This document shows positions 10,672 to 32,652 of a stretch of DNA of 33,198 nt, one piece after another. The notes beneath the pieces are model-generated. The model saw nothing but the letters and a program-made list of their open reading frames with translations. It was not told the DNA's origin and ran no database searches. The position numbers and the translations under genes were made by a program. The stretch comes from Deltaproteobacteria bacterium. Its GTDB lineage: Bacteria; Desulfobacterota; GWC2-55-46; DRQE01. The first letter of the stretch is position 1; every line of letters starts with the position of its first letter. The stretch spans positions 1-33,198 of the forward strand of contig DAOVKH010000001.1 in NCBI GenBank assembly GCA_030631875.1. The letters run 5' to 3'.

Positions 10672-11166
10672 ATGGCGATAGAGTGGGGAAAACTCAGGAC
10701 AGAGTACGAGTCAGACATAGTAAGTGTAGATGAACTGTCAAAGAAGTACGGCTGCAAGGCACAGACGATAGAGAGAAGGGCAAAGAAGTATGGTTGGGTT
10801 AAGAGGGTAAGGGGTGAAACCCCTTCAGGGCTGAAGCAGGAAGGTAAGGAGAGAAGAAGGGTTAGTCCATTGCCGTCAAGATCTAAGCCAAAGGAGAGTA
10901 CGCGAATACTCGGCGAGCATAGAAGGCTCTGGCAAAGCGTTAAGGGTACATTGGTCGAAGGTATTGCCGAGGGTGATGAGAAGAGACTCAAGGTCGCCAA
11001 GATTGCGGGCGACGGTCTCCTAAATATAGTTAAAGGAGAGAGGCAGGCATGGGGAATTACAGAGGGCTCTACCGATGTATCTGCCGAAGAATTATTAGGT
11101 GTCGTTAAAGAGATGGAAGAAGCTACGGTCTCACGCGGAGCAGAGACGGCTCTGGAGAGAGAATAA
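10672..11166 (+). CDS. terS: Terminase small subunit (HTH DNA-packaging protein)
   Basis: 164 aa with SD AGGAGAG. The N-terminal HTH WGKLRTEYESDIVSVDELSKKYGCKAQTIERRAKKYGWVKR is typical of TerS, and the gene lies directly upstream of and overlapping TerL. Confidence 0.7.
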   Translation: MAIEWGKLRTEYESDIVSVDELSKKYGCKAQTIERRAKKYGWVKRVRGETPSGLKQEGKERRRVSPLPSRSKPKESTRILGEHRRLWQSVKGTLVEGIAEGDEKRLKVAKIAGDGLLNIVKGERQAWGITEGSTDVSAEELLGVVKEMEEATVSRGAETALERE

Positions 11167-12355: not shown

Positions 12356-12366
12356 GAGGAGACGAG

Positions 12367-13737: not shown

Positions 13738-13761
13738 GGTTTGAAGGTCTCTGTACCCATA

Positions 13762-13807
13762 CTTGGCGCGGCAAAATTACCCTCGCGCAGTGCCAAGGAA
13801 TTTTATT
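13762..13807 (+). other. Hairpin followed by a T-rich stretch between the portal and scaffold genes (possible weak attenuator)
   Basis: CTTGGC-GCG...CGC-AGT-GCCAAG (13762-13797) followed by GAATTTTATT. Confidence 0.25.
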
Positions 13808-13839
13808 AAAGAGGGGATAGATTAAAAGGAGAAGAGTGA

Positions 13840-14499
13840 ATGAGTAAAGGTTATGAAGGTGATAGAGCTTTTACGGGCGATGGCCAAACAGTAGATTCAT
13901 CTCGGGTGGCGTTTACGCCCGAGCAACAGGTCAAGGTGCAGGAGCTTATAGACGAGTCCTACAAGAGGGCATACCAAAAAGCTCGAAAGGGCACTGTCTC
14001 GTCAGCAGACGTTGAGCTGATGCAACACGAGATAGGCGGGCTTCGAGAAGAGCGAAAGAGGGCGGCCATACTTGGCTCTGTATCACGCCATAATGTCGTT
14101 GACTCAATGGAGGTAGCCGAGCTTATAAGGGGTTCGGTCGTTGAGGGTGACGGCGGCGCTCTTGGCGTTATGGTTAATTCAAAGGACGCTGAGAGTGGAG
14201 GTGTGATGATGGGAGTAGATGAGTATGTCGATAGTTGGTTGTCCGATAGGCCACACCATATGCGAAGTCCGGGTATGGTCGGTGCGGGGTCTTCCGCGGC
14301 CTTCTTTGGCGGTGGAGGAAGGAAGGCATACAACCTCTCTGACCCAAACCTGTGGCGCACCTTGCCGCGAGAAGAAGTGGATAGGGTCTTGAGTGAAGGG
14401 ATAAACGTCCAAGGCGTGTCGGGTCAGACCTTCAGCTTTAAGGATGTCAAAAATCCTTTCCTTGAGGCAAAGAAAAGAAGCAATAAGACAGGAGGATAA
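13840..14499 (+). CDS. Capsid scaffolding protein
   Basis: 219 aa with SD AAGGAGAAG. It is charged with predicted helices (EQQVKVQELIDESYKRAYQKARKG), lies between portal and major capsid, and ends 5 nt before the capsid gene. Confidence 0.55.
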   Translation: MSKGYEGDRAFTGDGQTVDSSRVAFTPEQQVKVQELIDESYKRAYQKARKGTVSSADVELMQHEIGGLREERKRAAILGSVSRHNVVDSMEVAELIRGSVVEGDGGALGVMVNSKDAESGGVMMGVDEYVDSWLSDRPHHMRSPGMVGAGSSAAFFGGGGRKAYNLSDPNLWRTLPREEVDRVLSEGINVQGVSGQTFSFKDVKNPFLEAKKRSNKTGG

Positions 14500-14504
14500 T
14501 TTTT

Positions 14505-15368
14505 ATGGCAAACGAAGTAACTACAGGAGCAGGTTCTGCCGGCGAGTTGGTAGCGGCAGAGATAGTATCAAGGCTTGTAATAGACGCGGCCTACGCCGAG
14601 GCAGTCATGCCCGTGCTCGTAAGGACGGCCGACATAAGCGGTGAGTCGACCAATACGGTCGACTTTCCAAAGTGGCCTCTATTGAGCGCGAGCGATCTAA
14701 GCGAAGGCACAGATGCCAGTAACACGGCCGTCAATACAAGTTCTACGAGTGTCATCTCCGATGAGGCCGGTATCATGATAACCGTTACCGATATGCTCTT
14801 AAATGGCGCAGGCATCGGAGGGCTTGAGCCGTACGCAATGGAGCTTGGTAAGGCTCTTGCCAATAAGATAGATACAGACCTTCTCGGAGAGGTTGGAGAC
14901 TTTACAAATTCCGTAGGCACATCTGGTGCCGCTATGACGGAGGCAAACTTCCTCGAAGCAATATATATGCTCGAGAGTGCCAACGCCAAAGGCCCCTATG
15001 CCTGCGTACTGCATCCTGTGCAGATAAGGGATCTAAGGCAGGCTCTTGCTTCAGCAACAGGAGCCGTATGGGGAGGTCCGAGTGCTCCGGCCGCGGATCT
15101 CGGCGCGTTCGCAAACCTCTACGGTGTGGATATATACAGATCCACAAACTGTGCTTCGGTCAATGTCGACGCAGACCGTCAGGGCGTTATGATGCCTCAG
15201 GGCAATAACAGTGGTCTTGCCTTTGTGCTTAAGACCGGTGCGAAGACCGAGTTTCAGAGAGACGCATCACTTCGCGCAACAGAGATAGTCGTTACGGCTG
15301 TCTATGGCGACGAGTGTGTAGACGCGGACGCAAGCGGTGGTGTGGCGATAATCACCGACCACGAGTAG
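14505..15368 (+). CDS. Major capsid protein (probably HK97-fold, no delta domain)
   Basis: 287 aa with SD AGGAGG. It follows the scaffold gene, is rich in Ala/Gly/Thr as structural proteins often are, and is followed by a perfect 14 bp hairpin. Confidence 0.7.
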   Translation: MANEVTTGAGSAGELVAAEIVSRLVIDAAYAEAVMPVLVRTADISGESTNTVDFPKWPLLSASDLSEGTDASNTAVNTSSTSVISDEAGIMITVTDMLLNGAGIGGLEPYAMELGKALANKIDTDLLGEVGDFTNSVGTSGAAMTEANFLEAIYMLESANAKGPYACVLHPVQIRDLRQALASATGAVWGGPSAPAADLGAFANLYGVDIYRSTNCASVNVDADRQGVMMPQGNNSGLAFVLKTGAKTEFQRDASLRATEIVVTAVYGDECVDADASGGVAIITDHE

Positions 15369-15384
15369 GTAGAGCGTTAGGTAT

Positions 15385-15424
15385 TTACGAAGAGGCCTTT
15401 CTTTATTACGAGGCCTCTTCGTAA
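15385..15424 (+). terminator. Perfect 14-bp stem hairpin after the capsid gene (attenuator or RNA-stability element; no U-tract)
   Basis: TTACGAAGAGGCCT (15385-15398), a 12 nt loop, then AGGCCTCTTCGTAA (15411-15424). Confidence 0.45.
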
Positions 15425-15453
15425 ACCTTAAAAAGATGCAGGGAGATAAATTT

Positions 15454-15723
15454 ATGTCCGACATAGTTCGTTCGATGGAGCGTAAAGGATTTAAAGCACT
15501 TGCGGTAAATGATAGAGGCGGGATTGGGTTTAAGGCTTCCTTCAAAGAAGACCTCGAAGAGCTTGAAGAGCCGGTCTGGTTCGATACAGGGCTTAAGATG
15601 AAGGGCATCGACAAAAACGGTCTTACAGTCGAGGTAAATAGGAGCGTATGTGCGCGTGATAAACAGAAGTATAGAGAGTACGAGGCAAATGGATGGAAGC
15701 CTACGGGTGTAGGCAATGGATAA
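15454..15723 (+). CDS. Hypothetical phage protein
   Basis: 89 aa from ATG 15454, with GGGAGA 7 nt upstream (the track ORF starts at ATG 15436). No recognisable domain. Confidence 0.5.
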   Translation: MSDIVRSMERKGFKALAVNDRGGIGFKASFKEDLEELEEPVWFDTGLKMKGIDKNGLTVEVNRSVCARDKQKYREYEANGWKPTGVGNG

Positions 15724-15874
15724 AGCCAAGGTCGTTGACCGAGTAGTAGGACGTATATACAAGGAAAAATTAAAGAGCGGTGCCACCTTACCGAGCGGTA
15801 AAGAAGTTAAAGAAATGAAACGTAGGGTAGTCAGTGCGGCTGAAAAGGTAGATAGAAGAAGAGATAGAGTTTGA
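15716..15874 (+). CDS. Small basic hypothetical protein (52 aa, below the ORF-track cutoff)
   Basis: The ATG at 15716 overlaps the upstream stop (ATGGATAA). It translates to MDKAKVVDRVVGRIYKEKLKSGATLPSGKEVKEMKRRVVSAAEKVDRRRDRV and fills an otherwise empty gap in a tightly packed operon. Confidence 0.4.
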   Translation: MDKAKVVDRVVGRIYKEKLKSGATLPSGKEVKEMKRRVVSAAEKVDRRRDRV

Positions 15875-15907
15875 GAGTTTACTTTAAGAGAAAAGAGAGG
15901 TCTTGTT

Positions 15908-16123
15908 ATGGCTGAGTATTACCTTGAGATAAATGAAGAACTTACCGAAGAGACGGCTCTAAGCCGTCAGCCTTTAGGAGTCAGGGTTTCGGTTGCAGGT
16001 AGAGAAGATGCCTTGGAAAAAGTTTCTATCTTCGAGCCCTTTTTTGACGGAAGGCTCTATACAAAAGAACTTCACAGGTGTAACCACGATAGTGGTACTC
16101 CGTGCGCAAAGGAGACGCTCTAA
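15908..16123 (+). CDS. Hypothetical phage protein
   Basis: 71 aa with SD AGAGAGG 7 nt upstream. Its stop overlaps the next start (TAATG). Confidence 0.5.
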   Translation: MAEYYLEINEELTEETALSRQPLGVRVSVAGREDALEKVSIFEPFFDGRLYTKELHRCNHDSGTPCAKETL

Positions 16124-16908
16124 TGGCATTAACCGTTGGGCTTAAGGCTCTATATCACTTAAATGGTGACGCGAGAGATTCTTCGGGTAACGGTAACCAC
16201 GGAACGGTAGTAGGAGCAACGGTTGAATCTGAAACGGTAAAGCTTGGTTCAGCGGCTTACTCATTTGACGGCGTAGATGACCGTGTAAGCATTCCTCTTC
16301 TGAACTTTGATGAGGTAAGTGTTGCTTTCTGGTTCAACCGTTCGTCGCTGGATTCAGTTAATGCCGACACAGTTTTTGGTGCTTGGAAGTGGAGCTCGGA
16401 TGTACAGTTACAGGAAGGTTTTGACGTTGGAAGGTTTTTTCAACTTTCCCCTAATAAGTGCGATTTTACGATTGTTACTGAGGACGGAGGCGGCGTGAGG
16501 TCTGTAAAGACCGTTGCACATAACGTAGGTGACAGCACGGGTAGCTGGACACACCTCGTTGCTACATATTCAAAATCTACAGGCGAACAAAAGTTATACA
16601 TAGACGGTCTGCTAAGAGATACCACTGCACACATCGCAGGTAACACTATAGTACACTCGACATACTTTGTGGATATGTGGATAGGGGCTTCGCGTGTTAA
16701 TCAGGGATACTTTAACGGATTTATAGACGAGGTGGCTCTGTGGGATAGACCCCTGAGTGACGGTTCAGTTTCGGTCGGCGAGGTGGCCGGAGGCGAAGTA
16801 GCAGAATCATATAATGACGGATTTGGACGAGAAATTAAACTTACGCCGAAAGGGTATGTACCAAGGTCTGTGCATAAGGCGATTAAAGTAAAGGCGGTGA
16901 AGGTATGA
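16123..16908 (+). CDS. LamG / concanavalin-A-like lectin domain protein (Laminin_G_3-like), possible capsid decoration or head fibre
   Basis: 261 aa from ATG 16123, with AAGGAGA 7 nt upstream (the track ORF starts at GTG 16102). It has the hallmark pattern LYHLNGDARDSSGNGNHGTVVG...YSFDGVDDRVSIP...VAFWF...GSWTHLVATYSKSTGEQKLYIDG...FNGFIDEVALWDRPLS. Confidence 0.8.
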   Translation: MALTVGLKALYHLNGDARDSSGNGNHGTVVGATVESETVKLGSAAYSFDGVDDRVSIPLLNFDEVSVAFWFNRSSLDSVNADTVFGAWKWSSDVQLQEGFDVGRFFQLSPNKCDFTIVTEDGGGVRSVKTVAHNVGDSTGSWTHLVATYSKSTGEQKLYIDGLLRDTTAHIAGNTIVHSTYFVDMWIGASRVNQGYFNGFIDEVALWDRPLSDGSVSVGEVAGGEVAESYNDGFGREIKLTPKGYVPRSVHKAIKVKAVKV

Positions 16909-17789
16909 ACCAGCAATTTTTGATAGATACGGCAGATAAGTTTCGAACTTACATCTATGCGGATAATATATGTATAGTGCCGAGCTCGGCGACTATTACT
17001 ATATACAAGCCGGGTGGAGATGTTTTGCTCGTAGACTCTGCCACTATGGGCGTGGAAGCCGACGGCCTATTGACCTATGAGCTGAGTGCTTTGGATAACG
17101 CTACTGTCGATAGAAGTTACAAGAGTATTATAACTTACATATATGACGGGGAGACTTATTATATAAGCATTTTTTATGATGTCGTTCATTCAAGGCTTAC
17201 AAAGGTTATAACCGATGACGATCTTGTTAGAGAATTCCCGCAGTTGAAAGACGCAGAGTGGAGAGTCCACGGTACGGCCGATAGCGGTACGACAACCACC
17301 ATTGTCGACGAGGAGCTTAAGCGTTATGCAGAGGGTTATTTTACGGGCGGCCTTGCCTATTCAATAGACAAGGATGAGACGCGCGAGATAACGGACTTTG
17401 TCGCAAGCAGTGCTACCGTTACCGTTAAGGCTTTTGGCTCAGCGGTAATAAGCGATAAGTATATTCTTACACGTTCATTTTTGAGAGAGATAGAGCGTGC
17501 TTTTGAAAAGATAGAGGAGAGGCTCATTGCCGCCGGCAAGAGGCCTGAGCTTGTATTGGATTCTCAGGATTTGAGAAGCCTACATATATACGCATCTGTC
17601 GCTGAGGTAGCAAAAGGGTTGTCATCTAAGGTCGATGATTTTTGGTGGACTCTGTGGAAGGAATATGACGTTAAGGCCGACAGAGCCTTTGCGGTACTGC
17701 CCATTAAGTACGATACTTCGGGCGACGGTTATATAAGTTCCTCTGAAGATGGTTTACATCTTGGGTCTATAAGAACAGGTAGGGGGTAG
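16905..17789 (+). CDS. Hypothetical virion protein (possible head-tail adaptor or connector)
   Basis: 294 aa with an ATGA start/stop overlap with the LamG gene. It lies between the head genes and the tail tube genes. No motif recognised. Confidence 0.4.
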   Translation: MNQQFLIDTADKFRTYIYADNICIVPSSATITIYKPGGDVLLVDSATMGVEADGLLTYELSALDNATVDRSYKSIITYIYDGETYYISIFYDVVHSRLTKVITDDDLVREFPQLKDAEWRVHGTADSGTTTTIVDEELKRYAEGYFTGGLAYSIDKDETREITDFVASSATVTVKAFGSAVISDKYILTRSFLREIERAFEKIEERLIAAGKRPELVLDSQDLRSLHIYASVAEVAKGLSSKVDDFWWTLWKEYDVKADRAFAVLPIKYDTSGDGYISSSEDGLHLGSIRTGRG

Positions 17790-17794
17790 AGCGG

Positions 17795-18226
17795 ATGTCT
17801 AACTATCAGGTGGTAAGTTCTATTACCGAAAACTTAAGGCAACTCCTGCAGGGTGAGGGGATAAAGTTTTCAGCCAAGGTATTCGAAGACGAGAGTGCTA
17901 TACCGATGAGCCTTATTCCTTTCGGGAGGATACTCTATAAAGGAGAGAGCTTTGAGCACTCTTATGGAATGAAGCCGGGGTATGTTGACGCGGAGTTTCT
18001 AACGACCGTTACCCTTAAGGGTAACGACGATGCCTCCTTAATGGATGAGGCACAGCTCTGGACGCATCGTCTGCGAGAAGCTGTAACGGTATCGGCCGTT
18101 AATGTTGGAGGCTTGTCGGCTTCGAAGCCGGTCACTCAAGCTGCCATAAGTAAGGTTGATGTTAAGCGTGATGGAGAGCTTATTTCTTTAAGCGGCGTGG
18201 TTACGCTTAGATATAGAGAAGGTTGA
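17795..18226 (+). CDS. Hypothetical virion protein (possible tail terminator or head-tail joining protein)
   Basis: 143 aa, directly upstream of the putative major tail protein. Confidence 0.35.
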   Translation: MSNYQVVSSITENLRQLLQGEGIKFSAKVFEDESAIPMSLIPFGRILYKGESFEHSYGMKPGYVDAEFLTTVTLKGNDDASLMDEAQLWTHRLREAVTVSAVNVGGLSASKPVTQAAISKVDVKRDGELISLSGVVTLRYREG

Positions 18227-18258
18227 AAATTTAATATATTTAAAGGAGGTAGTTCAAG

Positions 18259-19350
18259 ATGGCTGAAAGTAAGATGTACCTTGCCGTTGGTGAAGAATCA
18301 ACGAGAGGGGTTAAGGAAGTGGCAACAGTAGGGTTCATACCGCTCTTGTCACCGTCTATTCCAAAGATGGAATTCGACGAGATACGACGTACAGAAATGC
18401 GAGGTACGAGCGGGGTCATGGGAGATACGTCGGTTACGCGCATGAGCCGCAAGTGGGGGGCGTCCATGGAGATGCCGTTCTTTACCGAGGCGGGCGGAAG
18501 TAAGCCCATGGTAGGGACTATCTTAAAGCACTTCTTCGGCAGTGCCGTGAGCGCACAGCAGGGGACGACTAACGCTTACGCGCATATGATCTATCCCGTT
18601 GCAGATCCTTTTTCGACGGCGAATTTAAGTGACTCTGCCTTAACGTTGAACTTGAATATCAACGAGGGGGCTGTCATGAAGAACTGGCCCTTTGTGGGAG
18701 GACGAGTCAGTAGCCTTAGCTTTGAGCAAGAGGCAGGTCAGCACTTGAAACTCTCCGCGGAATTCTTCGGACAGTTCAGAGACGACGTTACAGTCGAGAT
18801 AGGTTCTCCGGTCTTCGCACTTGAAAATCTGCGCTGTGATTACAGCAACCTTAAACTCTATACCGGAACGATTGTGAGAACCGGCACGGCCCCCGATTAT
18901 ACGGACTTTGATTTTACGGCGGCAACACAGATAAAGCCCGACACTATAAGTGTCAAGATAGAGAACGGCATGGAAGACGTATTAAGATTGACCGGACTTG
19001 ATTACTCCGATAAGACGCGCATGGGTAAGTTCAAGGTCTCGGTAGAGATGACGATAGACTGGGAAGATCCTTCAAGCGGCTTTAGCTCCGTCGACGAGTT
19101 CAATAGTTGGATTGCTTCAACGGCTTCAACGAATCTTTGTCTTGAGTGGGACAGCGGTACAGAGGCTGATACAGGCTATAACCATAAGTTCATAATCGAT
19201 ATACCGGTAGCGCTCAGGATGGGCGGCGAGGTAGAGTTCGACGCTGAAAAAGATCCAATGGTAACGCTCAACTACGAGGGCTTGTACGATGCCGATGGAG
19301 TTGGTTATATAGTAGGTTCTTTACTTCAAAATACGGCGACCTCTATTTAA
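18259..19350 (+). CDS. Putative major tail (tube) protein
   Basis: 363 aa with SD AAGGAGG. It lies immediately upstream of the G/GT chaperone pair and the tape measure, which is the canonical position for the siphovirus tail tube gene. Confidence 0.5.
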   Translation: MAESKMYLAVGEESTRGVKEVATVGFIPLLSPSIPKMEFDEIRRTEMRGTSGVMGDTSVTRMSRKWGASMEMPFFTEAGGSKPMVGTILKHFFGSAVSAQQGTTNAYAHMIYPVADPFSTANLSDSALTLNLNINEGAVMKNWPFVGGRVSSLSFEQEAGQHLKLSAEFFGQFRDDVTVEIGSPVFALENLRCDYSNLKLYTGTIVRTGTAPDYTDFDFTAATQIKPDTISVKIENGMEDVLRLTGLDYSDKTRMGKFKVSVEMTIDWEDPSSGFSSVDEFNSWIASTASTNLCLEWDSGTEADTGYNHKFIIDIPVALRMGGEVEFDAEKDPMVTLNYEGLYDADGVGYIVGSLLQNTATSI

Positions 19351-19380
19351 TAGAGTAGAAGCTGATAGGGAGGCTATAGA

Positions 19381-19755
19381 GTGGCTATCATAAGTTTCGA
19401 TCAAGATGCTGTTGTAGATTATATTCCGTCTTACGGAGCGAATAGAGATTCGGAAGACCCCTGTACGGTGAGTCTCAGGTTTATCCCTTATGCGCGCGTG
19501 CAGTATTATTCGCGTATCATTGCGGCAAGAACAAAAGGTGTTATCGAGGCCGAGAAGGTTCAAGAGATAACGCAGAGTGTCCAGCGAAGACAATTTGTGG
19601 AGAGCGTTAGCAGGGTGTCAGGTTATTTTGTGGGAGCTAAAGAGGTCACGGATCCTAACGAGCTTTATGATACGGCGGATACGGAGCTTATAGTGGAGTT
19701 GATACGCGCTATGGAGAATGCACAGAGGTTAACCGAGGGCCAAAGAAAAAACTAA
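19381..19755 (+). CDS. Tail assembly chaperone (G-like)
   Basis: 124 aa with a GTG start and GGGAGG 7 nt upstream. It ends ...CAA AGA AAA AAC TAA, with a slippery heptamer in frame just before the stop. It sits between the tail tube and the tape measure. Confidence 0.7.
   Translation: MAIISFDQDAVVDYIPSYGANRDSEDPCTVSLRFIPYARVQYYSRIIAARTKGVIEAEKVQEITQSVQRRQFVESVSRVSGYFVGAKEVTDPNELYDTADTELIVELIRAMENAQRLTEGQRKN
19746..19752 (+). promoter_or_regulatory. Programmed -1 ribosomal frameshift slippery site A_AAA_AAC
   Basis: The X_XXY_YYZ heptamer is in the correct zero-frame phase (codons AGA AAA AAC). The -1 frame is open from here (CTA ATA GCG GGT CTC CGT TGG AGC AAG) into ATG 19779. Confidence 0.75.
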
Positions 19756-19778
19756 TAGCGGGTCTCCGTTGGAGCAAG

Positions 19779-20147
19779 ATGACGGATGGCAAGGGCCCGT
19801 TTAGTTGTGAGGCGTGTTCTGAAAGCGATAAAGGTATGCGTAATTGTTTTAACGTACGCGGACTCTCTGAAAGAGCACGCGCTCTGAGTAAGTATGATGA
19901 AGATGTTGTCTCTGAACATAAAAAAAATACGGCAAAGAAGGTATTTACGCTCGGAGATATAAGGTTATATGAATGTCCGCTCAGTTATATTACGAGCGAT
20001 ACGAGGGGAATCTTAAGGGTCTTATATATGGCGGATTTTCTCGGTACGTTGGTATTGGCCGGTGGAATTGCCGAGCAACCTTGTTGGTTTATTGAGGCAG
20101 TTGAAATCTACGGAGTTGAAAGTGCCAAGGCTTTAAAGGAGAAATAG
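19779..20147 (+). CDS. T-like extension ORF of the tail assembly chaperone, probably expressed as a G-T fusion of about 255 aa by -1 frameshift
   Basis: 122 aa ORF in the -1 frame relative to 19381..19755. Unlike its neighbours it has no convincing SD before its ATG. Its stop abuts the tape measure start (TAGATG). Confidence 0.65.
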   Translation: MTDGKGPFSCEACSESDKGMRNCFNVRGLSERARALSKYDEDVVSEHKKNTAKKVFTLGDIRLYECPLSYITSDTRGILRVLYMADFLGTLVLAGGIAEQPCWFIEAVEIYGVESAKALKEK

Positions 20148-21065
20148 ATGGAAAAGGATAGAAGTGTTGAGGTCGTTATAAGTGCTCGTGATGAGTACTC
20201 AAAGACCTTTGAGAAAGTAGATAAGTCTATCGGTTCTCTCCAGTCGTCTGTACGGAGTAATGTCGATGGGGTTAAGCAGGAGTATGGAAAGACACTGCTC
20301 GCTCAATCCGCGGCGGTGGCAGGGAGCAACGGGGCAGACATAGAATTGTCCGGAGCCATTGCGCAGAAGGGATTCGCAGGCGATGAGAACGGCACGTCTT
20401 CTGCTGAGACCATGCGCATTGAGAATGAAGAAAAGGTATTGGCGACGACCGACTATAACGCTACACACTTGGAGCTAACTCGTCAGCGCCTATTGATGGA
20501 AAGTGAGATGGAGAGAGAAGGTTCTGATAGCCGTATGCAGAACGCTGCCAAGGAAAGAGACTTTAAGATGCAGGCCGTCTCTGATTATGCAGGAGCGGCT
20601 ATAAGTTTAATGGGTAATCTTCTTACGGCAACGAGTGCGCACGGAAAAAGTTCTTTTAAATTAATGAAGGGCTTTGGTACGGCTCAGGCAATAGTCGATA
20701 CCTACATGGGAGTGAACAGGGCATTAGGCTCAGCACCTCCTCCGCTGAACTTTGCGCTTGCGGCCTCGGTCATGGCTTCCGGTATGGCGACGGTCAGTAA
20801 GATAAAGGCTACAAGCCCAAGCGGAGGTAGCGGGGCAAGGGGCGGAGTATCAAGAGGCGCAGGAAGAGGCGCAAGAACAAGAGGGCTGGAAGTACCCATC
20901 AAGGCCAATGGTGAGGCGGAGAAGCAAACACAGAAGGTTACGATAAATGTGCATAATCCTCTGAGCGAACAAAACTGGGATGCAATTAGCGAAGATATAG
21001 TGGGTGCTATAAATAAGGCCGGCGAACGTAACGTCGCTCTTACCATAAAGAATACGGAGGATTAA
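20148..21065 (+). CDS. Tape measure protein (unusually short, 305 aa)
   Basis: SD AAGGAGA. It follows the chaperone pair. It has a helical N-terminal half and the TMP-like hydrophobic core GFGTAQAIVDTYMGVNRALGSAPPPLNFALAASVMASGMATVSKI, followed by a Gly/Arg-rich stretch. Confidence 0.7.
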   Translation: MEKDRSVEVVISARDEYSKTFEKVDKSIGSLQSSVRSNVDGVKQEYGKTLLAQSAAVAGSNGADIELSGAIAQKGFAGDENGTSSAETMRIENEEKVLATTDYNATHLELTRQRLLMESEMEREGSDSRMQNAAKERDFKMQAVSDYAGAAISLMGNLLTATSAHGKSSFKLMKGFGTAQAIVDTYMGVNRALGSAPPPLNFALAASVMASGMATVSKIKATSPSGGSGARGGVSRGAGRGARTRGLEVPIKANGEAEKQTQKVTINVHNPLSEQNWDAISEDIVGAINKAGERNVALTIKNTED

Positions 21066-21068
21066 AAG

Positions 21069-21857
21069 GTGGTCTTAGATTGGGCGAAGGTTAAATTCTT
21101 TTACGATACGATGTTAGGTACGCCGTCGTCGACACTTCAGGCAACATCTACCGAGAGCGGCGACTATGACGTTAAGTATCTACATAACTGGCTTGAGACT
21201 AACAAGTGGCAGGCCGCTGATTCAAGCACTCCGCAATATATAACATATGACGCAGGAAGTGGGAATTCCAATGAAGCCGACTATCTTATTGTATACGGAC
21301 ATAATTTGGCGGAGGCAGGCGCAAGCATTACGCTTCAGTACTCAGACGACGGTTTTATCTCGGACGTGAATGACGTCTTTACCACTGAGGCGATAAGCTC
21401 TGACGCTGTATATCTTAAGGAGTTCGTAGGCCCGGGAGCGTATAGGTTTTGGCGTTTAAAGATAGAGGGGCCTTTATCCGAAGTTCCCTGCATGACGCTT
21501 TGCCTATGGGGTGAAGCAACAGAGCTGGATTACTGCACGTCAAGCTTTGATCCTAATGAAGAGGATATAAAGGCTAACGTAGGAATAAGCTACGGCGGCT
21601 ATCTTACCGGCAGTCACATAAAACATGTTGAACGCAGGATGCTCTTGAACTTCAGTGATTCGGATTCCCTGCTCTATCAGAAGATAAAGCTTTGGAGAGA
21701 CACACATGGGTTGAATAATCTTTTTGTGGCATGGGAGTTGGCAAATAACCCCGCAGACGTATGGCTGATGAGGCCTTCGCCGAGGTTTAGAAACCCGCTT
21801 AATGAGACCGGGCTCTATAGGGATATTTCCATAGAGCTTAACGGAAGGAAGGAGTAG
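21069..21857 (+). CDS. Putative distal tail / baseplate protein
   Basis: 262 aa with a GTG start and GGAGGA 7 nt upstream. It is the first gene after the tape measure. The pattern WQAADSSTPQYITYDAG...ADYLIVYGHNL...ITLQYSDDG...YRFWRLKIEG suggests a beta-sandwich fold. Confidence 0.45.
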   Translation: MVLDWAKVKFFYDTMLGTPSSTLQATSTESGDYDVKYLHNWLETNKWQAADSSTPQYITYDAGSGNSNEADYLIVYGHNLAEAGASITLQYSDDGFISDVNDVFTTEAISSDAVYLKEFVGPGAYRFWRLKIEGPLSEVPCMTLCLWGEATELDYCTSSFDPNEEDIKANVGISYGGYLTGSHIKHVERRMLLNFSDSDSLLYQKIKLWRDTHGLNNLFVAWELANNPADVWLMRPSPRFRNPLNETGLYRDISIELNGRKE

Positions 21858-21861
21858 GCGT

Positions 21862-22215
21862 ATGGCTATAACTCTTTCAGATGCCTACCTCGGAAAGCTT
21901 AAAGAAGGTGTCAATGAGCCAAATGTTATATTGGAGGTTACCTTAGATAGCGGCACCGTTAAGTGGGGTTACTCCACGGGCGGGTTTTCCGACGTACTAC
22001 CCATAGTGAAGAGCCTGTCGTCGTTACAAAATAAGCTCGATATAAAAGGCGGCTTTGTGACCCTTGGGCAGATTACGGTCGTTATCAGCGGACGAGATAA
22101 CTTTAAAGAACTCTTGAGAGACGAATTCTTAAAGAACAGAAGGGTTGTACGTAAAGACGGTTTTAGCGCCGTAACTTACGACGATTACGCCGCTACATTT
22201 ACAGGTACGATATAG
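21862..22215 (+). CDS. N-terminal segment of the tail hub / tip protein, ended by an in-frame TAG
   Basis: 117 aa with SD AAGGAG 7 nt upstream. It is in the same reading frame as 22264..23505, separated only by TAG 22213-22215 and 16 sense codons. Confidence 0.6.
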   Translation: MAITLSDAYLGKLKEGVNEPNVILEVTLDSGTVKWGYSTGGFSDVLPIVKSLSSLQNKLDIKGGFVTLGQITVVISGRDNFKELLRDEFLKNRRVVRKDGFSAVTYDDYAATFTGTI

Positions 22216-22263
22216 AATTGGTCGAGGCGAGGTGACGAGCTTACCATAACTATAGCCGACGAT

Positions 22264-23505
22264 ATGGTTAAGGCGAAAAAGAAGATACCTCTTGAGAATT
22301 CAACCAATACGCAGGTACTCGATTATAGGGCGATGAATCCCGTCGATATAATGCTCGATATACTTTCAAATAGGCTCGGCATTGATCTGTTACACATCGA
22401 CACTGCGCAGTTTGAATCAGAGCGGGATATATGGCTCTCCGGGTGGAAGTTTGACCGTCTTCTTACTAAACCCGAAGATGCCATAAAGTATTTGGGCGAG
22501 CTTCAGGTAGAGACCAACTCTTACATAGTACATGATGGCGAGAAGGTAAGTCTTAAGTACTTTGGTCCGCCTACTCCCGGAAGTGATGTCCTCTCATGGA
22601 ATGATGACATTAATATTCTTAACGCTACCTTTACGCAGAGGTCGGGATACGCGGAGGGCTTCTTTAACAGAGTAGTCTTTTACTATGACTATGATGAGAG
22701 CGGCAACGATAAGCCCGAGAACTTCGAGGCAGTCTATATAGCGACCGACACTTCTTCTCAAAGCAGTAGTGAGTGGAACGAGGTTAAGACCAAGGTCATT
22801 AAAAGCCGTTGGGTGAGGACTACTACTATCGCACAGCCAACGGATATAAGCGGTGTGGTTATATATCACTCAAGTACTGCGAACGGTATTGGCGAGGGCC
22901 TGCTTGAATTTGATTACATGGCCAACACACTCAGGTGGACAGCACCAGGAAGTACAGGAGGCGAGGAAGTAACCCTTGATAAAGATGGTAAATATCAACT
23001 CTTCGATGAGAGTAAGACGAAGTGGGTGCGTGTCGTCGTTGATACTTCAAGCCTGCCTACCAGTAATAAGATCGATACGGTAGCCATAACGGCCTTAAGC
23101 GGCAATAGCTTTGCCGCGACTATCGCGGATAAGTTACTTAAGCGTTATCGTAATCCCATGTCGAGTGTAAGGCTGCAAGTCGATATAAATGATCTTGCAA
23201 ATGGCAGTAAGTTTTTAAAGCCGACCGATATGGTAGACCTGACGACCGATGAGGCCTGCGGAAAAGATAACGATACGTGGGCTTCTGAGCGGATGATGAT
23301 TACTTCGCTAAGGCCTGATTTTTCCGGAGCCAGAGTTGACATAGAAGCGGTTCAGGCAAAGATGTATCGCAGTTACGGTTTTATAGCTCCGACATCGTAC
23401 CCTGATTATCCGAGCGCGACCAGTAGGGAGAGAGAGTACGCTTTTATCGGAGATTTAAATAATAAAGTAAGTGGAGGTTTGGATGATGGTTATTACGTCT
23501 GGTAA
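22264..23505 (+). CDS. C-terminal segment of the tail hub / tip protein (no SD of its own; likely one 547-codon gene with 21862..22215)
   Basis: 413 aa with no SD before ATG 22264. The peptide across the junction, FTGTI-*-NWSRRGDELTITIADDMVKAKKKIP, reads like a continuous beta-rich domain. Confidence 0.6.
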   Translation: MVKAKKKIPLENSTNTQVLDYRAMNPVDIMLDILSNRLGIDLLHIDTAQFESERDIWLSGWKFDRLLTKPEDAIKYLGELQVETNSYIVHDGEKVSLKYFGPPTPGSDVLSWNDDINILNATFTQRSGYAEGFFNRVVFYYDYDESGNDKPENFEAVYIATDTSSQSSSEWNEVKTKVIKSRWVRTTTIAQPTDISGVVIYHSSTANGIGEGLLEFDYMANTLRWTAPGSTGGEEVTLDKDGKYQLFDESKTKWVRVVVDTSSLPTSNKIDTVAITALSGNSFAATIADKLLKRYRNPMSSVRLQVDINDLANGSKFLKPTDMVDLTTDEACGKDNDTWASERMMITSLRPDFSGARVDIEAVQAKMYRSYGFIAPTSYPDYPSATSREREYAFIGDLNNKVSGGLDDGYYVW

Positions 23506-23517
23506 GGAGGTGGAGCT

Positions 23518-23973
23518 ATGACAGTACCGAGTAAGTCGTGGAGTCTAATAACGGACGGGCAGGTAGATGCCGACAGTCCGCTCGATACGACATTGATTAC
23601 GGCCTTGCGCGATAACCTCGTGCACTTAGAGGAGTGGCTTGGTGACGGGTATGCGGCAACGAAGGATCATGACCATGACGGTTTAAATAGTAAGGTATTA
23701 GGCACTCCATCTATGCAGTCGAGCGGTTATCAGGATATAGCCGCCAGTGCTACATGGACGCCAAGTCTTGGGAGCTATCAATTTGTAGTTCATAATGCGA
23801 CGGGGGCAGCGTCTCCGCAGTTATATATTGATTCCGCATGGAGGGGATGGACCGGAGCCGGCAACGGGATACGTGAGGTCGGAAGTTTTGGATACTTTGA
23901 TGGAGCAAATATGAGGTTCCTTGAGAGAACCGGCGCGGGCACGGTAAGGCTCTGGTATCAAAAGTTTAATTAA
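23518..23973 (+). CDS. Small putative tail fibre / receptor-binding protein
   Basis: 151 aa with SD AAGGAGGTG. It is the last structural gene after the hub. The N-terminus WSLITDGQVDADSPLDTTLITALRDNLVHLEEWLG resembles N-termini of phage fibre proteins; this is from memory and unverified. Confidence 0.4.
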   Translation: MTVPSKSWSLITDGQVDADSPLDTTLITALRDNLVHLEEWLGDGYAATKDHDHDGLNSKVLGTPSMQSSGYQDIAASATWTPSLGSYQFVVHNATGAASPQLYIDSAWRGWTGAGNGIREVGSFGYFDGANMRFLERTGAGTVRLWYQKFN

Positions 23974-23982
23974 GGAGGCGTT

Positions 23983-24246
23983 ATGATTATAGATAAGACA
24001 AAAGAAGAGTGCGCTCATATACCTCATAGCCTTGACGGAGAGGTATTGCTTGAAGAGAGGAAAGATGAGGACGGTAATAGTAAGGGGTTCCTTACTATTA
24101 AACCGGAATACCTGAAGCACTACGGCGAGACGAAGAGCAGCGAAGAGCTTGCCGAGCTTGGCTTTGGCAAATATATGAATACGATTGCATCGGTGATGGC
24201 GCGTAGCGACATAAAGGGAAGGCCGCCGGAGGTTATCGTAGGATAA
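23983..24246 (+). CDS. Hypothetical phage protein
   Basis: 87 aa with SD AAGGAGG 4-5 nt upstream. Hydrophilic, with no recognised motif. Confidence 0.5.
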   Translation: MIIDKTKEECAHIPHSLDGEVLLEERKDEDGNSKGFLTIKPEYLKHYGETKSSEELAELGFGKYMNTIASVMARSDIKGRPPEVIVG

Positions 24247-24249
24247 GTT

Positions 24250-24465
24250 ATGGGAGATATAGATGAATTATCACGCGCCATCGGGCGTATTGAAGGTGCT
24301 CAGGTAGAGATGTTGAAGAACCAGCAGGAGATAAAAGAAGAACAGATTCTTTTGAGAGGTTCTATAGCAGAGCAACGTCTTAGTGTTGCTAAGATATCGG
24401 GAGCGGTAGCACTTGTATTTTCAGTTGTCGTTACGAGTCTTCGCGATTACTTCTTTAAAAACTAA
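24250..24465 (+). CDS. Small coiled-coil protein with one C-terminal TM helix (lysis-cassette membrane protein; holin, antiholin or spanin-like)
   Basis: 71 aa. The N-terminal heptad-like region (IEGAQVEMLKNQQEIKEEQILL) is followed by ISGAVALVFSVVVTSL. It lies directly upstream of the endolysin. Confidence 0.45.
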   Translation: MGDIDELSRAIGRIEGAQVEMLKNQQEIKEEQILLRGSIAEQRLSVAKISGAVALVFSVVVTSLRDYFFKN

Positions 24466-24477
24466 TAGGAGGTCTTC

Positions 24478-24915
24478 TTGAGAAAGATAGATAAAATAAT
24501 TCTCCATTGCAGTGATTCGGACTTTGGAGATAAAGATCTAATAGACGGCTGGCACAGCGCGCGCGGTTGGGATGGAATCGGTTATCACTATGTGATACTC
24601 AACGGACATCCTTCGGATGCGCCATATAGAAGGTCCGAAGACGGGGTCATCGAAATCGGTAGAGACGTGGATGAAATAGGGGCACATTGTTACGGAGAGA
24701 ATAAAGACAGTATAGGAATATCGCTGGTAGGGCGAAATCACTTTACTCCTCTTCAGCTCTTCGTAGCATTGCCGTTACTTTTATCCGCACTCTTAAAGGA
24801 GCACGGCCTTGGGGTTAAGGATATATTCGGTCATGGTGAATTCAACTCGAAGAAGACGTGCCCCAATATGGATATGAAGGTCTTTAGAGAGAACCTTTCA
24901 CGTACGCTCTACTAA
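24478..24915 (+). CDS. N-acetylmuramoyl-L-alanine amidase endolysin (Amidase_2 / PGRP / T7-lysozyme-like)
   Basis: 145 aa with a TTG start after AGGAGGT. It has the zinc-amidase pattern IILHCSDS...GWDGIGYHYVI...GAHCYGENKDSIGISLVG...FGHGEF..KTCP and no signal peptide. Confidence 0.85.
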   Translation: MRKIDKIILHCSDSDFGDKDLIDGWHSARGWDGIGYHYVILNGHPSDAPYRRSEDGVIEIGRDVDEIGAHCYGENKDSIGISLVGRNHFTPLQLFVALPLLLSALLKEHGLGVKDIFGHGEFNSKKTCPNMDMKVFRENLSRTLY

Positions 24916-25004
24916 AGGGAGTTGGAGACGTAGAAGATAGAGAAGATGTTGTCGATTAAAGATAAGCTTCGGAGGGTTAGCTTCGAGCTAAGGAGGATTA
25001 TGTT

Positions 25005-25433
25005 ATGACACCGATTATAGGAGACCTTATAAAGAACACGGTAGGTAAGGTTGTAGGGCGTCTTGCCGATAAGTATCTGCCTAAGTCTATGAGTGAGGCA
25101 GAGAGAGCCGACTTTAACATGGAGGCCGAGCGTCTTGCCATAGAGGAGTATAAGACGGCGATAGCCGACGTGCAGGGCGCACGCGAACTTGCCATGAAAG
25201 AATCCGATGACGCTCCGCCTTGGACTAAAGTCCTTACCGTTACGCACAGACCGATGTGGAGTCTTTTAATATTGGCGGCCTTTGTGTGGACAATCGTTGC
25301 GCCGTCCTTTGGTATGAATGTGATAACCCTCACCGAGATACATAAGGATATAATGCAGACGGTTATTATCTTTTACTTTGGCGGTCGTACTGTAGAGAAG
25401 ACGGCTGGGCTACTTCGTAAGTACAAGATGTAG
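25005..25433 (+). CDS. Holin-like membrane protein (DUF3154 / GTA_holin_3TM-like)
   Basis: 142 aa with SD AAGGAGGA. It has an amphipathic Gly-rich N-terminus (IIGDLIKNTVGKVVGRLADKYLP), a charged helix, then HRPMWSLLILAAFVWTIVAPSFG and IMQTVIIFYFGG hydrophobic segments. It is the last gene of the cluster. The family assignment is from memory. Confidence 0.55.
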   Translation: MTPIIGDLIKNTVGKVVGRLADKYLPKSMSEAERADFNMEAERLAIEEYKTAIADVQGARELAMKESDDAPPWTKVLTVTHRPMWSLLILAAFVWTIVAPSFGMNVITLTEIHKDIMQTVIIFYFGGRTVEKTAGLLRKYKM

Positions 25434-30903: not shown

Positions 30904-32652
30904 TTAAAGGCTGAAGGCCGGCCTTACCGGACCTATCATAGGCATATCGGTGAAGTCTTCTTCCTCGTACTCGAGCTCTTCGAGGTCATCTTCTTCATAC
31001 TCAAGTGGGCGGAGCTTTAATATAGATTCTTTTTCTATAGATTCGTTATATGGGTCGGCAATCTCTACTATACGGCGGCGTTCGAATTTAAGAAGAAAGA
31101 GTGACTTCTCGGTCTCTCCGTCACTATCAAAGCTAATAAGGCCGGTAACGCCGTCGGTCGGTTTCATCGTCGCTATAGCATCTTTGATGGAGATAGATTT
31201 TTCCACTGAAGTATCTATGCCCGACAGGAGTACTCGTGTCGCGTCGAAGGCCTCTGCCTCTATTATCGCCGGTTCATAGCCGTATGCTTCCTTAAAGAGG
31301 GTTACGAAGTCGTGCGTTACACGGCGTTTACTCCTTGGGAAGAAGCCGTCGACAAAGACCGCGCCCTGGATATAATCGCCGGCACTGCGTATCAGCTCGG
31401 TCGAGTTCCAGCCGTTTGAACCGAGGAGTTGCAGGTCTTCGATATTGTAGTAGGCGATGTAGGGAGCTATCTGTGAGATGGTAGCGTAGTTGTCCGGAAT
31501 GAAGAGGGCATCGATTTCCTTAGTAGTGGTATATTCCGTGACGCGACGCCTTCCCTGCATCGTCTCTTCCATCTCTATACCGAATAGTTCGGTAAATTCT
31601 TCGCCAAAGTCCTTCTTCTTAGGCTCGTAGGCGCTAATGGCTACGACCGATGCACCGCGTTTTTTGACCGCATCCGAGAATAGCGAGGCGAGTTTTTTGC
31701 CGTATGGGTTTTCGGGGTAGAGTATTGCGAACCTTTCCTTGCAGAGCGCGCGCGTGGCATACTCGGCCAGTGTCTCGGCCTGCATCTTCGGAGTTATAAA
31801 GTTCCTGAAGATGTTCTTTCCGGATTTGGCTATCTCTTCTTTCTGGGAGAGTATTATCGCCGGCACTCGCCGTCTCTTAGCGACCTTTGCCGCGCCGAGA
31901 GCATTCTTACTCCTAAGAGGGCCTATGATGCCTTCGACATCTTCCTTCTTGAGGAAGTTCCAGAGGTCTCTCTCCATTGGATTCTTAGCCGTACTCTTTT
32001 CGGATAGTGCCGTGTCGTGCACCTTGACCTCGACGGCAACCGGTGAGTCTCCATCGGCCTCTCCGTATACTCCGGCGGCCAATAGGATACCCTTAAGGGC
32101 TCGTTCTCCGTAGGGAGCGTAATTACCGCTAAGCGGAAGCACCGCACCTATGGTTATCTCCTGGAACCGATCGTTGAGGGAGCTTGTGACGGCGGCTATC
32201 GTCGTAAGTAAAAGTTCGGCCTTTATCTGAGCCTCTACCGTAGCGTTCTCCGTAGTCGCGAGCGATTGCAGTACGGATTTGGCTTCGAGGATATTACCCT
32301 TGCGATAGAGTGAGTATCCGAGCTTGTATAGCGAGTCACTTCTGTCGCGGCTCTCGCTAAACTTGTCTACGAGTAGCCTGTAAGCGCTTATGGCGGATTC
32401 AAAGTCTTTCTGCTCGGTGTAGATGGAGGCTATCTTCATAACCGCCTCCTCGACCATATCCGAGCGGCGGTGTTTGCCTATGAAACGTTTGAGTTGCCTG
32501 AGGTTATCTTCATTTGCTCCATTGGTCTCAATATCCAGGAATATCTTTGAGAGTAGTTTCCTGGGGCTTTCGGCACCGTAGGCGATATTGTCGTAGATGG
32601 GCACTAAGGCGAGGGATATCGCAAATGCTATGGCTATAAATTTTATCTTCAC
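30904..32652 (-). CDS. Exported TPR plus type-I periplasmic-binding-fold protein (LivK / LpoA-like)
   Basis: 582 aa with a GTG start overlapping the dnaJ stop. It has a signal peptide, TPR-like repeats (residues about 60-140), then GAVLPLSGNYAPYGERALKGILLA typical of Peripla_BP_6/LppC folds, and an acidic C-terminus. Confidence 0.65.
   Translation of the reverse strand: MKIKFIAIAFAISLALVPIYDNIAYGAESPRKLLSKIFLDIETNGANEDNLRQLKRFIGKHRRSDMVEEAVMKIASIYTEQKDFESAISAYRLLVDKFSESRDRSDSLYKLGYSLYRKGNILEAKSVLQSLATTENATVEAQIKAELLLTTIAAVTSSLNDRFQEITIGAVLPLSGNYAPYGERALKGILLAAGVYGEADGDSPVAVEVKVHDTALSEKSTAKNPMERDLWNFLKKEDVEGIIGPLRSKNALGAAKVAKRRRVPAIILSQKEEIAKSGKNIFRNFITPKMQAETLAEYATRALCKERFAILYPENPYGKKLASLFSDAVKKRGASVVAISAYEPKKKDFGEEFTELFGIEMEETMQGRRRVTEYTTTKEIDALFIPDNYATISQIAPYIAYYNIEDLQLLGSNGWNSTELIRSAGDYIQGAVFVDGFFPRSKRRVTHDFVTLFKEAYGYEPAIIEAEAFDATRVLLSGIDTSVEKSISIKDAIATMKPTDGVTGLISFDSDGETEKSLFLLKFERRRIVEIADPYNESIEKESILKLRPLEYEEDDLEELEYEEEDFTDMPMIGPVRPAFSL

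What the first reader, a model, noticed from the sequence alone, without database searches (positions are those of the whole stretch)
21862..23505. Tail hub gene split by a single in-frame TAG (22213-22215)
Seen in sequence:
- ORFs 21862..22215 and 22264..23505 are in the same frame.
- The only interruption is one amber codon. The 16 codons between it and ATG 22264 are all sense (NWSRRGDELTITIADD).
- ATG 22264 has no Shine-Dalgarno, while nearly every other gene in the cluster has a strong AGGAGG-like SD at 5-9 nt.
- The peptide reads continuously across the stop: ...YAATFTGTI*NWSRRGDELTITIADDMVKAKKKIP.

Inference: this is one hub/tip gene of about 547 codons. It either carries a nonsense mutation (first sign of decay, or a sequencing error) or depends on amber readthrough or suppression to make a long and a short isoform. 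This bears directly on whether the particle system is functional.
Basis: partly seen in the sequence, partly recalled or inferred. Interest (0 to 1): 0.6.

Follow-up and report, generated by a model that had tools for sequence, protein, structure and literature searches.

The report
Premature amber stop in tail-hub gene
A single C-to-T change has put a stop codon into the tail-hub gene of an otherwise intact phage-like particle cluster, while near-identical strains carry the unbroken gene, so this is an ordinary young knockout (or a base-call error), not a recoding signal.

Summary
ORFs 21862-22215 and 22264-23505 share a frame and are separated only by TAG 22213-22215 and 16 sense codons. ATG 22264 has no Shine-Dalgarno.

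It is one gene:
- All 120 retrieved homologues (524-698 aa) span the junction.
- About 45 genomes of the same order carry it with no internal stop.
- The AlphaFold model (pLDDT 85.7) has a gp27/pb3/J-like hub fold, and codon 118 lies mid-strand in the first domain.

Three other assemblies that are 99.7-99.8% identical in DNA encode the same 547-aa protein with CAG (Gln) at this codon. Across the whole 1,644-base gene, 22213 is the only difference.

Recoding is not supported:
- None of the 37 tRNAs found has a CUA anticodon, and there is no PylS.
- RF1 is intact.
- TAG ends 29% of long ORFs and behaves like TAA.
- No homologue has a stop at this position, and no RNA structure follows it.

A functional split is unlikely. 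Residues 119-134, which hold five invariant or nearly invariant positions, would be missing from both products.

Verdict: an unprogrammed, very recent CAG-to-TAG change. It is most likely a real private allele and less likely a consensus error. The finding itself is ordinary. The interesting part is the setting, a GTA-like cluster fixed upstream of lpxC across the order.

The parts
21850..21854 (+). Shine-Dalgarno (AGGAG) of the hub gene, 7 nt before ATG 21862
   Evidence: sequence; anti-SD duplex -8.3 kcal/mol.
21862..22212 (+). Hub gene codons 1-117, most of the first hub domain. This is the product made if TAG terminates.
   Evidence: Homologues align from residue 1. dN/dS against the intact relative L002 is 0.03.
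22213..22215 (+). Premature amber codon TAG (codon 118). Base 22213 is T here and C (CAG, Gln) in three near-identical assemblies and in the 80%-identical relative.
   Evidence: Across 120 homologues the column holds L, T, S, Q, I, N, V or M, never a stop. In the model it lies mid-strand, in E110-123.
22216..22263 (+). Codons 119-134 (NWSRRGDELTITIADD), sense but in neither ORF. They hold W120, R122, D125, L127 and D133 and form the second half of a beta-hairpin.
   Evidence: W 119/120, R 113/120, D 120/120, L 118/120, D 120/120; strands 110-123 and 126-132.
22264..23505 (+). Hub gene codons 135-547 plus TAA. ATG 22264 is an internal Met codon and not an evolved start (no SD). The intact relative also has Met here and most homologues have Leu.
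   Evidence: phrog_11439 (tail) matches residues 145-320. dN/dS is 0.10.
20148..21857 (+). Context: a short tape-measure protein (20148-21065) and a distal-tail-position protein (21069-21857), directly upstream of the hub gene.
   Evidence: tape-measure PHROGs, E 4e-14; gene order; both intact against L002.

Best explanation
Window 21862-23505 is a single gene for the tail-tip (baseplate) hub protein of a siphovirus-type, GTA-like particle cluster. In this strain one C-to-T transition at 22213 changed codon 118 from CAG (Gln) to TAG. The change is unprogrammed and very young, a private allele of the population this genome was assembled from. RF1 terminates translation at the TAG and releases a 117-residue fragment that lacks the last beta-hairpin of the first hub domain. 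The downstream 413 codons have no ribosome-binding site and would be translated only rarely, by reinitiation. Neither product contains residues 119-134. The allele is therefore null or strongly hypomorphic for tail assembly (inference). Any full-length hub would come only from background misreading of UAG by the near-cognate tRNA-Gln(CUG), which would put back the ancestral residue (inference from general knowledge). What is shown: one gene, the hub fold, the single-base difference, the existence of an intact allele, and the absence of suppression machinery. What is inferred: that the T is really in the cells and not a consensus error, and the loss of function.
For: One gene: 235 homologues were found. 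The 120 retrieved are 524-698 aa and all span the junction. In 77 genomes of the order, 54 have a match and about 45 full-length matches have no stop. Fold: AlphaFold2 gives pLDDT 85.7 and pTM 0.85. Foldseek matches the MuSo2 43 kDa tail protein (3cdd, TM-target 0.65), T5 pb3 (7zhj_b), lambda J (8k35_A), the eCIS (7aef_q) and diffocin (8v3w_H) hubs, VgrG and RcGTA (6tba_7A), all at probability 1.0. Point change: the exact 547-aa protein with Q118 is on record in NCBI, ENA and Logan, on three contigs that are 99.66-99.84% identical to the window with no gaps. 22213 is the only difference inside the gene. A real strain and not a noisy consensus: the 47 differences from L011 are 34 synonymous, 11 non-synonymous and 2 intergenic. 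Random errors would give roughly three non-synonymous per synonymous change. Young: the other 19 cluster genes are intact, and dN/dS against L002 is 0.03-0.10 on both sides of the stop with no indels. TAG is a true stop: RF1 scores 516 bits and is intact. TAG ends 290 of 993 long ORFs, with a median of 12 open codons after it against 10 for TAA.
Against: A consensus or base-call error, or a minority variant fixed by the assembler, cannot be excluded. The TAG allele is seen only in this assembly: the 117-aa and 413-aa products have no other source. The three intact contigs are identical to each other across the cluster, so they probably sample one population and are not three independent witnesses. 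Loss of function is inferred, not measured.
Confidence: 0.68

Rival explanations
1. Consensus, base-call or assembly artefact. The organism actually has CAG at codon 118, and the T at 22213 is an error or a minority read variant picked by the assembler, so the gene is intact in the cells.
For: The TAG allele occurs only in this assembly. Every close relative reads C. It is an isolated single-base difference in a fragmented draft of 227 contigs, 90.65% complete. A nonsense change in a gene under strong purifying selection (dN/dS 0.08) is unlikely a priori.
Against: The other window-specific differences look like real evolved SNPs (34 synonymous to 11 non-synonymous, 34 transitions to 13 transversions), so the consensus is generally sound. 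Real differences run at about 2 per kb here, far above typical consensus error rates (general knowledge). No homopolymer or repeat surrounds the site.
Confidence: 0.22
2. Programmed amber readthrough or suppression. UAG 118 is decoded at useful frequency by a suppressor tRNA, pyrrolysine or context-driven readthrough, giving a 117-aa short form and a 547-aa long form by design.
For: The aligned column is variable (L, T, S, Q, I, N, V, M), so any inserted residue would probably be tolerated. The base after the stop is A, which general knowledge of E. coli rates as a comparatively leaky context. tRNA-Gln(CUG) is present. Only about three hub copies are needed per particle (general knowledge of tail-tip hubs).
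Against: None of the 37 tRNAs has a CUA anticodon and there is no tRNA in the cluster. PylS is absent: the best match is 23 bits against a cut-off of 178. RF1 is intact. TAG is used as a normal stop with no excess of open frames after it. None of 120 homologues or about 45 genomic copies has a stop here, and a 99.8%-identical strain has a plain CAG. The 116 nt after the stop show no significant structure (z -1.1). The genome is only 90.65% complete, so a missing tRNA cannot be fully excluded.
Confidence: 0.05
3. Functional split gene. The 117-aa and 413-aa polypeptides are both made, the second by termination-reinitiation at ATG 22264, and they assemble into a working hub.
For: ATG 22264 lies 48 nt after the stop, within reach of a reinitiating ribosome (general knowledge). 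Codon 135 sits at the start of helix 134-139, close to a boundary between structural elements.
Against: There is no SD before 22264 (+0.3 kcal/mol). The ATG is an ordinary internal codon, Met in the intact relative too and Leu in most homologues. Residues 119-134 would be in neither product. They include W120, R122, D125, L127 and D133, which are conserved in 113-120 of 120 homologues, and they complete a beta-hairpin. No homologue is encoded as two genes split here.
Confidence: 0.04

Closest known systems
Classical amber (nonsense) mutants of phage tail-tip genes, such as lambda J amber mutants (from general knowledge)
   Same: A single CAG-to-TAG type change in the tail-tip hub gene truncates the protein. 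It is expected to block tail assembly unless a suppressor is present. The position tolerates many residues.
   Different: This one arose naturally in an environmental draft genome, in a chromosomally fixed GTA-like cluster. No suppressor host is evident.
gp27-like baseplate and tail-tip hub proteins: MuSo2 43 kDa tail protein (PDB 3cdd), T5 pb3 (7zhj), lambda J (8k35), eCIS and diffocin hubs (7aef, 8v3w), T6SS VgrG, T4 gp27 (2z6b)
   Same: The predicted fold matches at Foldseek probability 1.0, E from 1e-12 to 1e-6. The gene sits directly after the tape-measure and distal-tail genes.
   Different: Sequence identity is only 7-12%. There is no Pfam hit and no PDB hit by sequence profile. At 547 aa it is shorter than pb3 or J and carries no recognisable fibre or receptor-binding extension.
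Rhodobacter capsulatus gene transfer agent (RcGTA) tail tip (PDB 6tba)
   Same: It belongs to a compact head-tail-lysis cluster with no integrase or replication genes, fixed in the chromosome. A GTA-type holin family (PF11351) gives a weak hit to the last cluster gene. The RcGTA virion entry 6tba matches the model (chain 7A, E 1.3e-4).
   Different: The fold match to the RcGTA chain covers only 180 columns (TM-query 0.20). The host is an uncultured Thermodesulfobacteriota lineage and not an alphaproteobacterium. DNA packaging and transfer are untested.
Programmed stop-codon readthrough in phages (Q-beta A1 protein, UGA) and pyrrolysine decoding of UAG
   Same: An in-frame stop separates a short form from a potential long form.
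   Different: The stop is not conserved, there is no dedicated tRNA or Pyl machinery, RF1 is present, and an intact CAG allele exists at 99.8% DNA identity.

Membership tests
gp27-like tail-tip / baseplate hub protein | Multi-domain hub fold (tube-like N-terminal beta-barrel domain plus further hub domains) | tested here: met
   AF2 model with pLDDT 85.7 and pTM 0.85. Foldseek PDB gives 51 matches at E<=0.001. The top ones are hubs: 7aef_q, 8v3w_H, 3cdd (TM-target 0.65), 7zhj_b, 8k35_A, VgrG, 2z6b_D. The viral library agrees, with tail proteins and a tip attachment protein J domain.
gp27-like tail-tip / baseplate hub protein | Gene position immediately after the tape-measure and distal-tail genes | tested here: met
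   20148-21065 hits tape-measure PHROGs. The order tube, chaperone pair, TMP, 262-aa gene, hub is collinear with L002.
gp27-like tail-tip / baseplate hub protein | Sequence membership in a curated hub family (a Pfam phage tail or hub model) | tested here: not met
   No Pfam family at E<=0.01. Only phrog_11439 ('tail fiber protein', E 4e-13, residues 145-320) matches. A profile search of PDB sequences found nothing meaningful.
gp27-like tail-tip / baseplate hub protein | Trimer that closes the distal end of the tail tube | not testable with these tools
   Needs a multimer model or particle cryo-EM.
Programmed stop-codon readthrough / suppression | The stop codon is conserved at this position in homologues | tested here: not met
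   0 of 120 homologues have a stop here and all span the junction. About 45 genomic copies have no stop. Near-identical contigs read CAG.
Programmed stop-codon readthrough / suppression | Suppressor tRNA (anticodon CUA) or Pyl machinery in the genome or element | tested here: not met
   ARAGORN found 37 tRNAs and none with CUA. The window holds only tRNA-Ala(CGC), outside the cluster. PylS C-terminal family: best 23.4 bits against a cut-off of 178. Caveat: the genome is 90.65% complete.
Programmed stop-codon readthrough / suppression | Stimulatory RNA structure just 3' of the stop | tested here: not met
   Fold of 22205-22320: -24 kcal/mol, z -1.13, and 31 of 200 shuffles fold at least as well.
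TAG-reassigned genetic code | RF1 lost, and TAG rare as a terminator but frequent in frame | tested here: not met
   prfA is intact at 516 bits. TAG ends 290 of 993 ORFs of at least 200 aa, and open extensions after it resemble those after TAA.
Decaying pseudogene / degenerating prophage | Several lesions, or relaxed selection in the gene and its neighbours | tested here: not met
   There is one lesion only. The other 19 cluster genes are full length against L002. dN/dS is 0.03-0.10. There are no other differences from the intact allele in 1,644 bases.
GTA-like domesticated particle locus (context) | Head, tail and lysis genes without integrase, repressor or replication genes, at a fixed chromosomal site across taxa | tested here: met
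   Terminase, portal, capsid, tube, TMP, hub and amidase are present, with host genes (MurJ, MazG, SelA, GGDEF-EAL, LpxC) on both sides. By my tally, lpxC lies 1.7-5 kb downstream on the same strand in all 36 genomes where both genes share a contig.
GTA-like domesticated particle locus (context) | Particles package random host DNA and transfer it | not testable with these tools
   Needs particle purification and sequencing from a culture or enrichment.

The most novel reading that the evidence does not exclude
The amber allele is a real, maintained polymorphism that acts as a leaky throttle on the GTA-like particles. Background misreading of UAG-A by tRNA-Gln(CUG) restores the ancestral Gln and yields a few per cent or less of full-length hub. 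Because only about three hub copies are needed per tail, a small fraction of particles would still be tailed, so carriers produce far fewer functional particles than CAG strains in the same population.
Probability: 0.04. Interest if true: 0.5.

Novelty: already known. Interest (0 to 1): 0.15.

Why it matters
For the particle system, this genome as assembled probably cannot build tails, while its sister strains can. The species as a whole therefore keeps a functional locus, and the lesion says nothing about general decay. For annotation, the two ORFs should be merged and flagged as one interrupted gene, not called as two proteins. There is no evidence for a new recoding mechanism. The broader point is the setting: a head-tail-lysis cluster fixed upstream of lpxC across an order of Thermodesulfobacteriota. 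That is a candidate gene-transfer-agent lineage and is worth its own study.

Tried and rejected
This was the most direct test.
- Pfam on both halves and on the read-through protein gave no family. A sequence-profile search of PDB chains gave only chance hits to kinases. The hub assignment therefore rests on fold and gene order.
- Pyrrolysine: the PylS family gave only sub-threshold class-II synthetase matches. I did not search pylBCD separately.
- Code reassignment is rejected by the presence of RF1 and by stop-codon statistics.
- A readthrough-stimulating RNA structure is rejected.
- A literature search for gene transfer agents in Desulfobacterota found nothing relevant.
- My first SNP table used a wrong frame for the open-ended last gene and double-counted a category. 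One search corrects it, and only its numbers are used.
- The dN/dS partitions are off by one codon at the 134/135 boundary. This does not affect the result.

Full report
**Observation.**
- ATG 21862 is preceded by AGGAG at 21850-21854 and opens 117 sense codons.
- TAG sits at 22213-22215. Sixteen sense codons follow (NWSRRGDELTITIADD, codons 119-134).
- ATG 22264 (codon 135) opens 413 codons to the TAA ending at 23505. All of this is in one frame, and the read-through product has 547 residues.
- The Shine-Dalgarno contrast is real. Anti-SD duplex energy is -8.3 kcal/mol before 21862 and +0.3 before 22264. Seventeen of the 22 cluster starts scored are at -6 or below, and internal ATG codons have a median of -3.0.
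- No ATG, GTG or TTG lies in frame between the stop and 22264.
- A long same-frame ORF after a stop is not unusual in this genome (9% of TAG-ended and 11% of TAA-ended long ORFs). The case for one gene therefore rests on homology.

**One gene.** A database search with the read-through protein found 235 relatives.
- The 120 retrieved are 524-698 aa long, and all of them span the junction.
- The only 413-aa entry is the window's own product.
- In 77 genomes of the same order, 54 have a match and about 45 full-length matches contain no stop.
- The exceptions are this genome (1 TAG), one visibly decayed copy (G051, with four stops) and one frameshifted copy (G022).
- The column aligned with the TAG is variable: L 35, T 25, S 17, Q 15, I 14, N 4, V 3, M 3.
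- The residues just after it are close to invariant: W120 in 119 of 120, R122 in 113, D125 in 120, L127 in 118 and D133 in 120.
- Met135 is an ordinary internal codon. It is Met in the intact closest relative too and Leu in most homologues.

**What the protein is.** Pfam gives nothing, and a profile search of PDB sequences gives only chance hits. PHROGs gives one tail family over residues 145-320.
- An AlphaFold2 model built on a 32-sequence alignment is confident, with pLDDT 85.7 and pTM 0.85.
- Foldseek places it among gp27-like hubs: the MuSo2 43 kDa tail protein (3cdd, TM-target 0.65), T5 pb3, lambda J, the eCIS and diffocin hubs, VgrG, T4 gp27 and a chain of the RcGTA virion.
- The gene follows a short tape-measure gene and a distal-tail-position gene.
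- "Tail hub" is therefore right by fold and by position, although the protein belongs to no curated sequence family.
- Codon 118 lies in the middle of strand 110-123, which pairs with strand 126-132 to close the first domain. Helix 134-139 begins where the second ORF starts.

**Origin of the stop.** The closest diverged relative (80% identical, L002) reads ATA CAG AAT where the window reads ATA TAG AAT.
- The exact 547-aa protein with Gln at 118 is on record in NCBI, ENA and Logan.
- It lies on three contigs that match the window at 99.78%, 99.66% and 99.84% with no gaps.
- Inside the 1,644-base gene, 22213 is the only difference, and all three contigs read C.
- The window is nevertheless a distinct strain. 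It differs from the 60-kb scaffold at 47 of 21,337 positions: 34 synonymous, 11 non-synonymous and 2 intergenic, with 34 transitions. That is the signature of real evolved differences and not of consensus noise.
- The three intact contigs are identical to one another across the cluster, so they count as one population and not three.
- The TAG allele is seen nowhere else.

**Age.** All the other 19 genes of the cluster are full length and collinear with L002. dN/dS against L002 is 0.03 before the stop and 0.10 after it, similar to the capsid (0.045) and tube (0.065) genes, and there are no indels. Nothing has decayed downstream of the stop, so the change is very recent, or it is not in the cells at all.

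**Recoding tests.**
- ARAGORN finds 37 tRNAs and a tmRNA in the 1.6-Mb, 90.65%-complete genome, and none has a CUA anticodon.
- The window holds only tRNA-Ala(CGC), outside the cluster.
- PylS is absent, with a best match of 23 bits against a cut-off of 178.
- RF1 is present and intact.
- TAG ends 290 of 993 ORFs of at least 200 aa. The open extension after it has a median of 12 codons, against 10 for TAA.
- The 116 nt around and after the stop fold no better than shuffles (z -1.1).
- Together with the lack of any conserved stop in homologues, this rules out programmed readthrough, suppression or reassignment as reasonable readings.

**Consequence (inferred).** Termination yields a 117-residue fragment with an incomplete first domain.
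- The 413-codon remainder has no ribosome-binding site.
- Even if it were reinitiated, residues 119-134 with their invariant positions would be missing from both pieces.
- From what is established for siphovirus tails, the hub nucleates tail assembly with the tape measure and the distal tail protein. The allele should therefore give tail-less particles.
- A trace of full-length protein could arise from near-cognate misreading of UAG by tRNA-Gln(CUG), which is present. This is general knowledge and was not tested here.

- In favour of a real allele: the window's other differences behave as true SNPs at about 2 per kb, far above plausible consensus error rates.
- In favour of an artefact: the allele is private, and it is deleterious in a gene under strong constraint.
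- I put the odds at about 3 to 1 for a real allele.

**Context.** Host genes flank the cluster on both sides: MurJ, MazG, SelA and a GGDEF-EAL sensor upstream, LpxC downstream. There is no integrase, repressor or replication gene.
- In every one of 36 genomes where the hub and lpxC share a contig, lpxC lies 1.7-5 kb downstream on the same strand. This covers three families and includes two closed chromosomes (by my tally).
- In the remaining 18 genomes with a hub match, the two genes are on different contigs (14) or lpxC was not found (4).
- It also means that the lesion seen here is a strain-level event in a locus that the lineage otherwise maintains.

**Verdict.** The explanation is the ordinary one, a single unprogrammed C-to-T change that makes an amber codon. 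Interest in the finding itself is low.

Noticed in passing
window 10672-25433; G-handles: The whole head-tail-lysis cluster sits at a fixed chromosomal site. lpxC lies 1.7-5 kb downstream of the hub gene on the same strand in all 36 genomes of the order where both share a contig (families f1, f3, f4, including closed chromosomes G048 and G053). The hub gene is found in 54 of 77 genomes and 30 of 42 genera. This points to vertical inheritance, as in a gene transfer agent.
   Followed up: partly
window 12861-12963 (portal gene): Twelve of the 47 differences from the near-identical scaffold L011 fall within 103 bases of the portal gene, and ten of them are synonymous. Smaller clusters occur at 24408-24414 and 31518-31564. 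This looks like short recombination tracts or a consensus that mixes strains.
   Followed up: no
G051:C14:10902-12600; G022:C19:75170-76677: Other genomes of the order carry truly broken hub genes at the same lpxC-linked site. G051 has 2 TGA and 2 TAG, and G022 is split over two frames. The locus does decay in some lineages.
   Followed up: no
G009:C53:14542-16191 and G009:C86:2568-4217: One genome of the same family has two full-length hub genes, 62% and 60% identical to the window's, on different contigs. It may therefore hold two copies of the cluster, or the bin may be mixed.
   Followed up: no
homologues P0023, P0067, P0114, P0121 (alignment A1, columns 57-100); P0019: Many homologues carry a 20-40 residue Gly/Ala-rich insertion after residue 38 of the hub. 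One (P0019, 698 aa) has a carbohydrate-binding PF02018 domain. Both are possible sites of host-range variation.
   Followed up: no
window 25005-25433: The identical gene in L011 and L012 carries a precomputed weak Pfam hit to PF11351 (GTA_holin_3TM). It follows an Amidase_2 endolysin (24478-24915).
   Followed up: no
genome G000: ARAGORN calls a tRNA-Ile with anticodon AAT, which is unusual for bacteria, and finds no tRNA-Asn, tRNA-Tyr or tRNA-Sec. Yet selA is in the window (3799-5190). This is probably due to the incomplete assembly.
   Followed up: no
G005:C156:5659-6486: A hub relative only 30% identical lies 1.8 kb upstream of lpxC in a genome of the same family. The site may hold a much more diverged version of the cluster there.
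   Followed up: no
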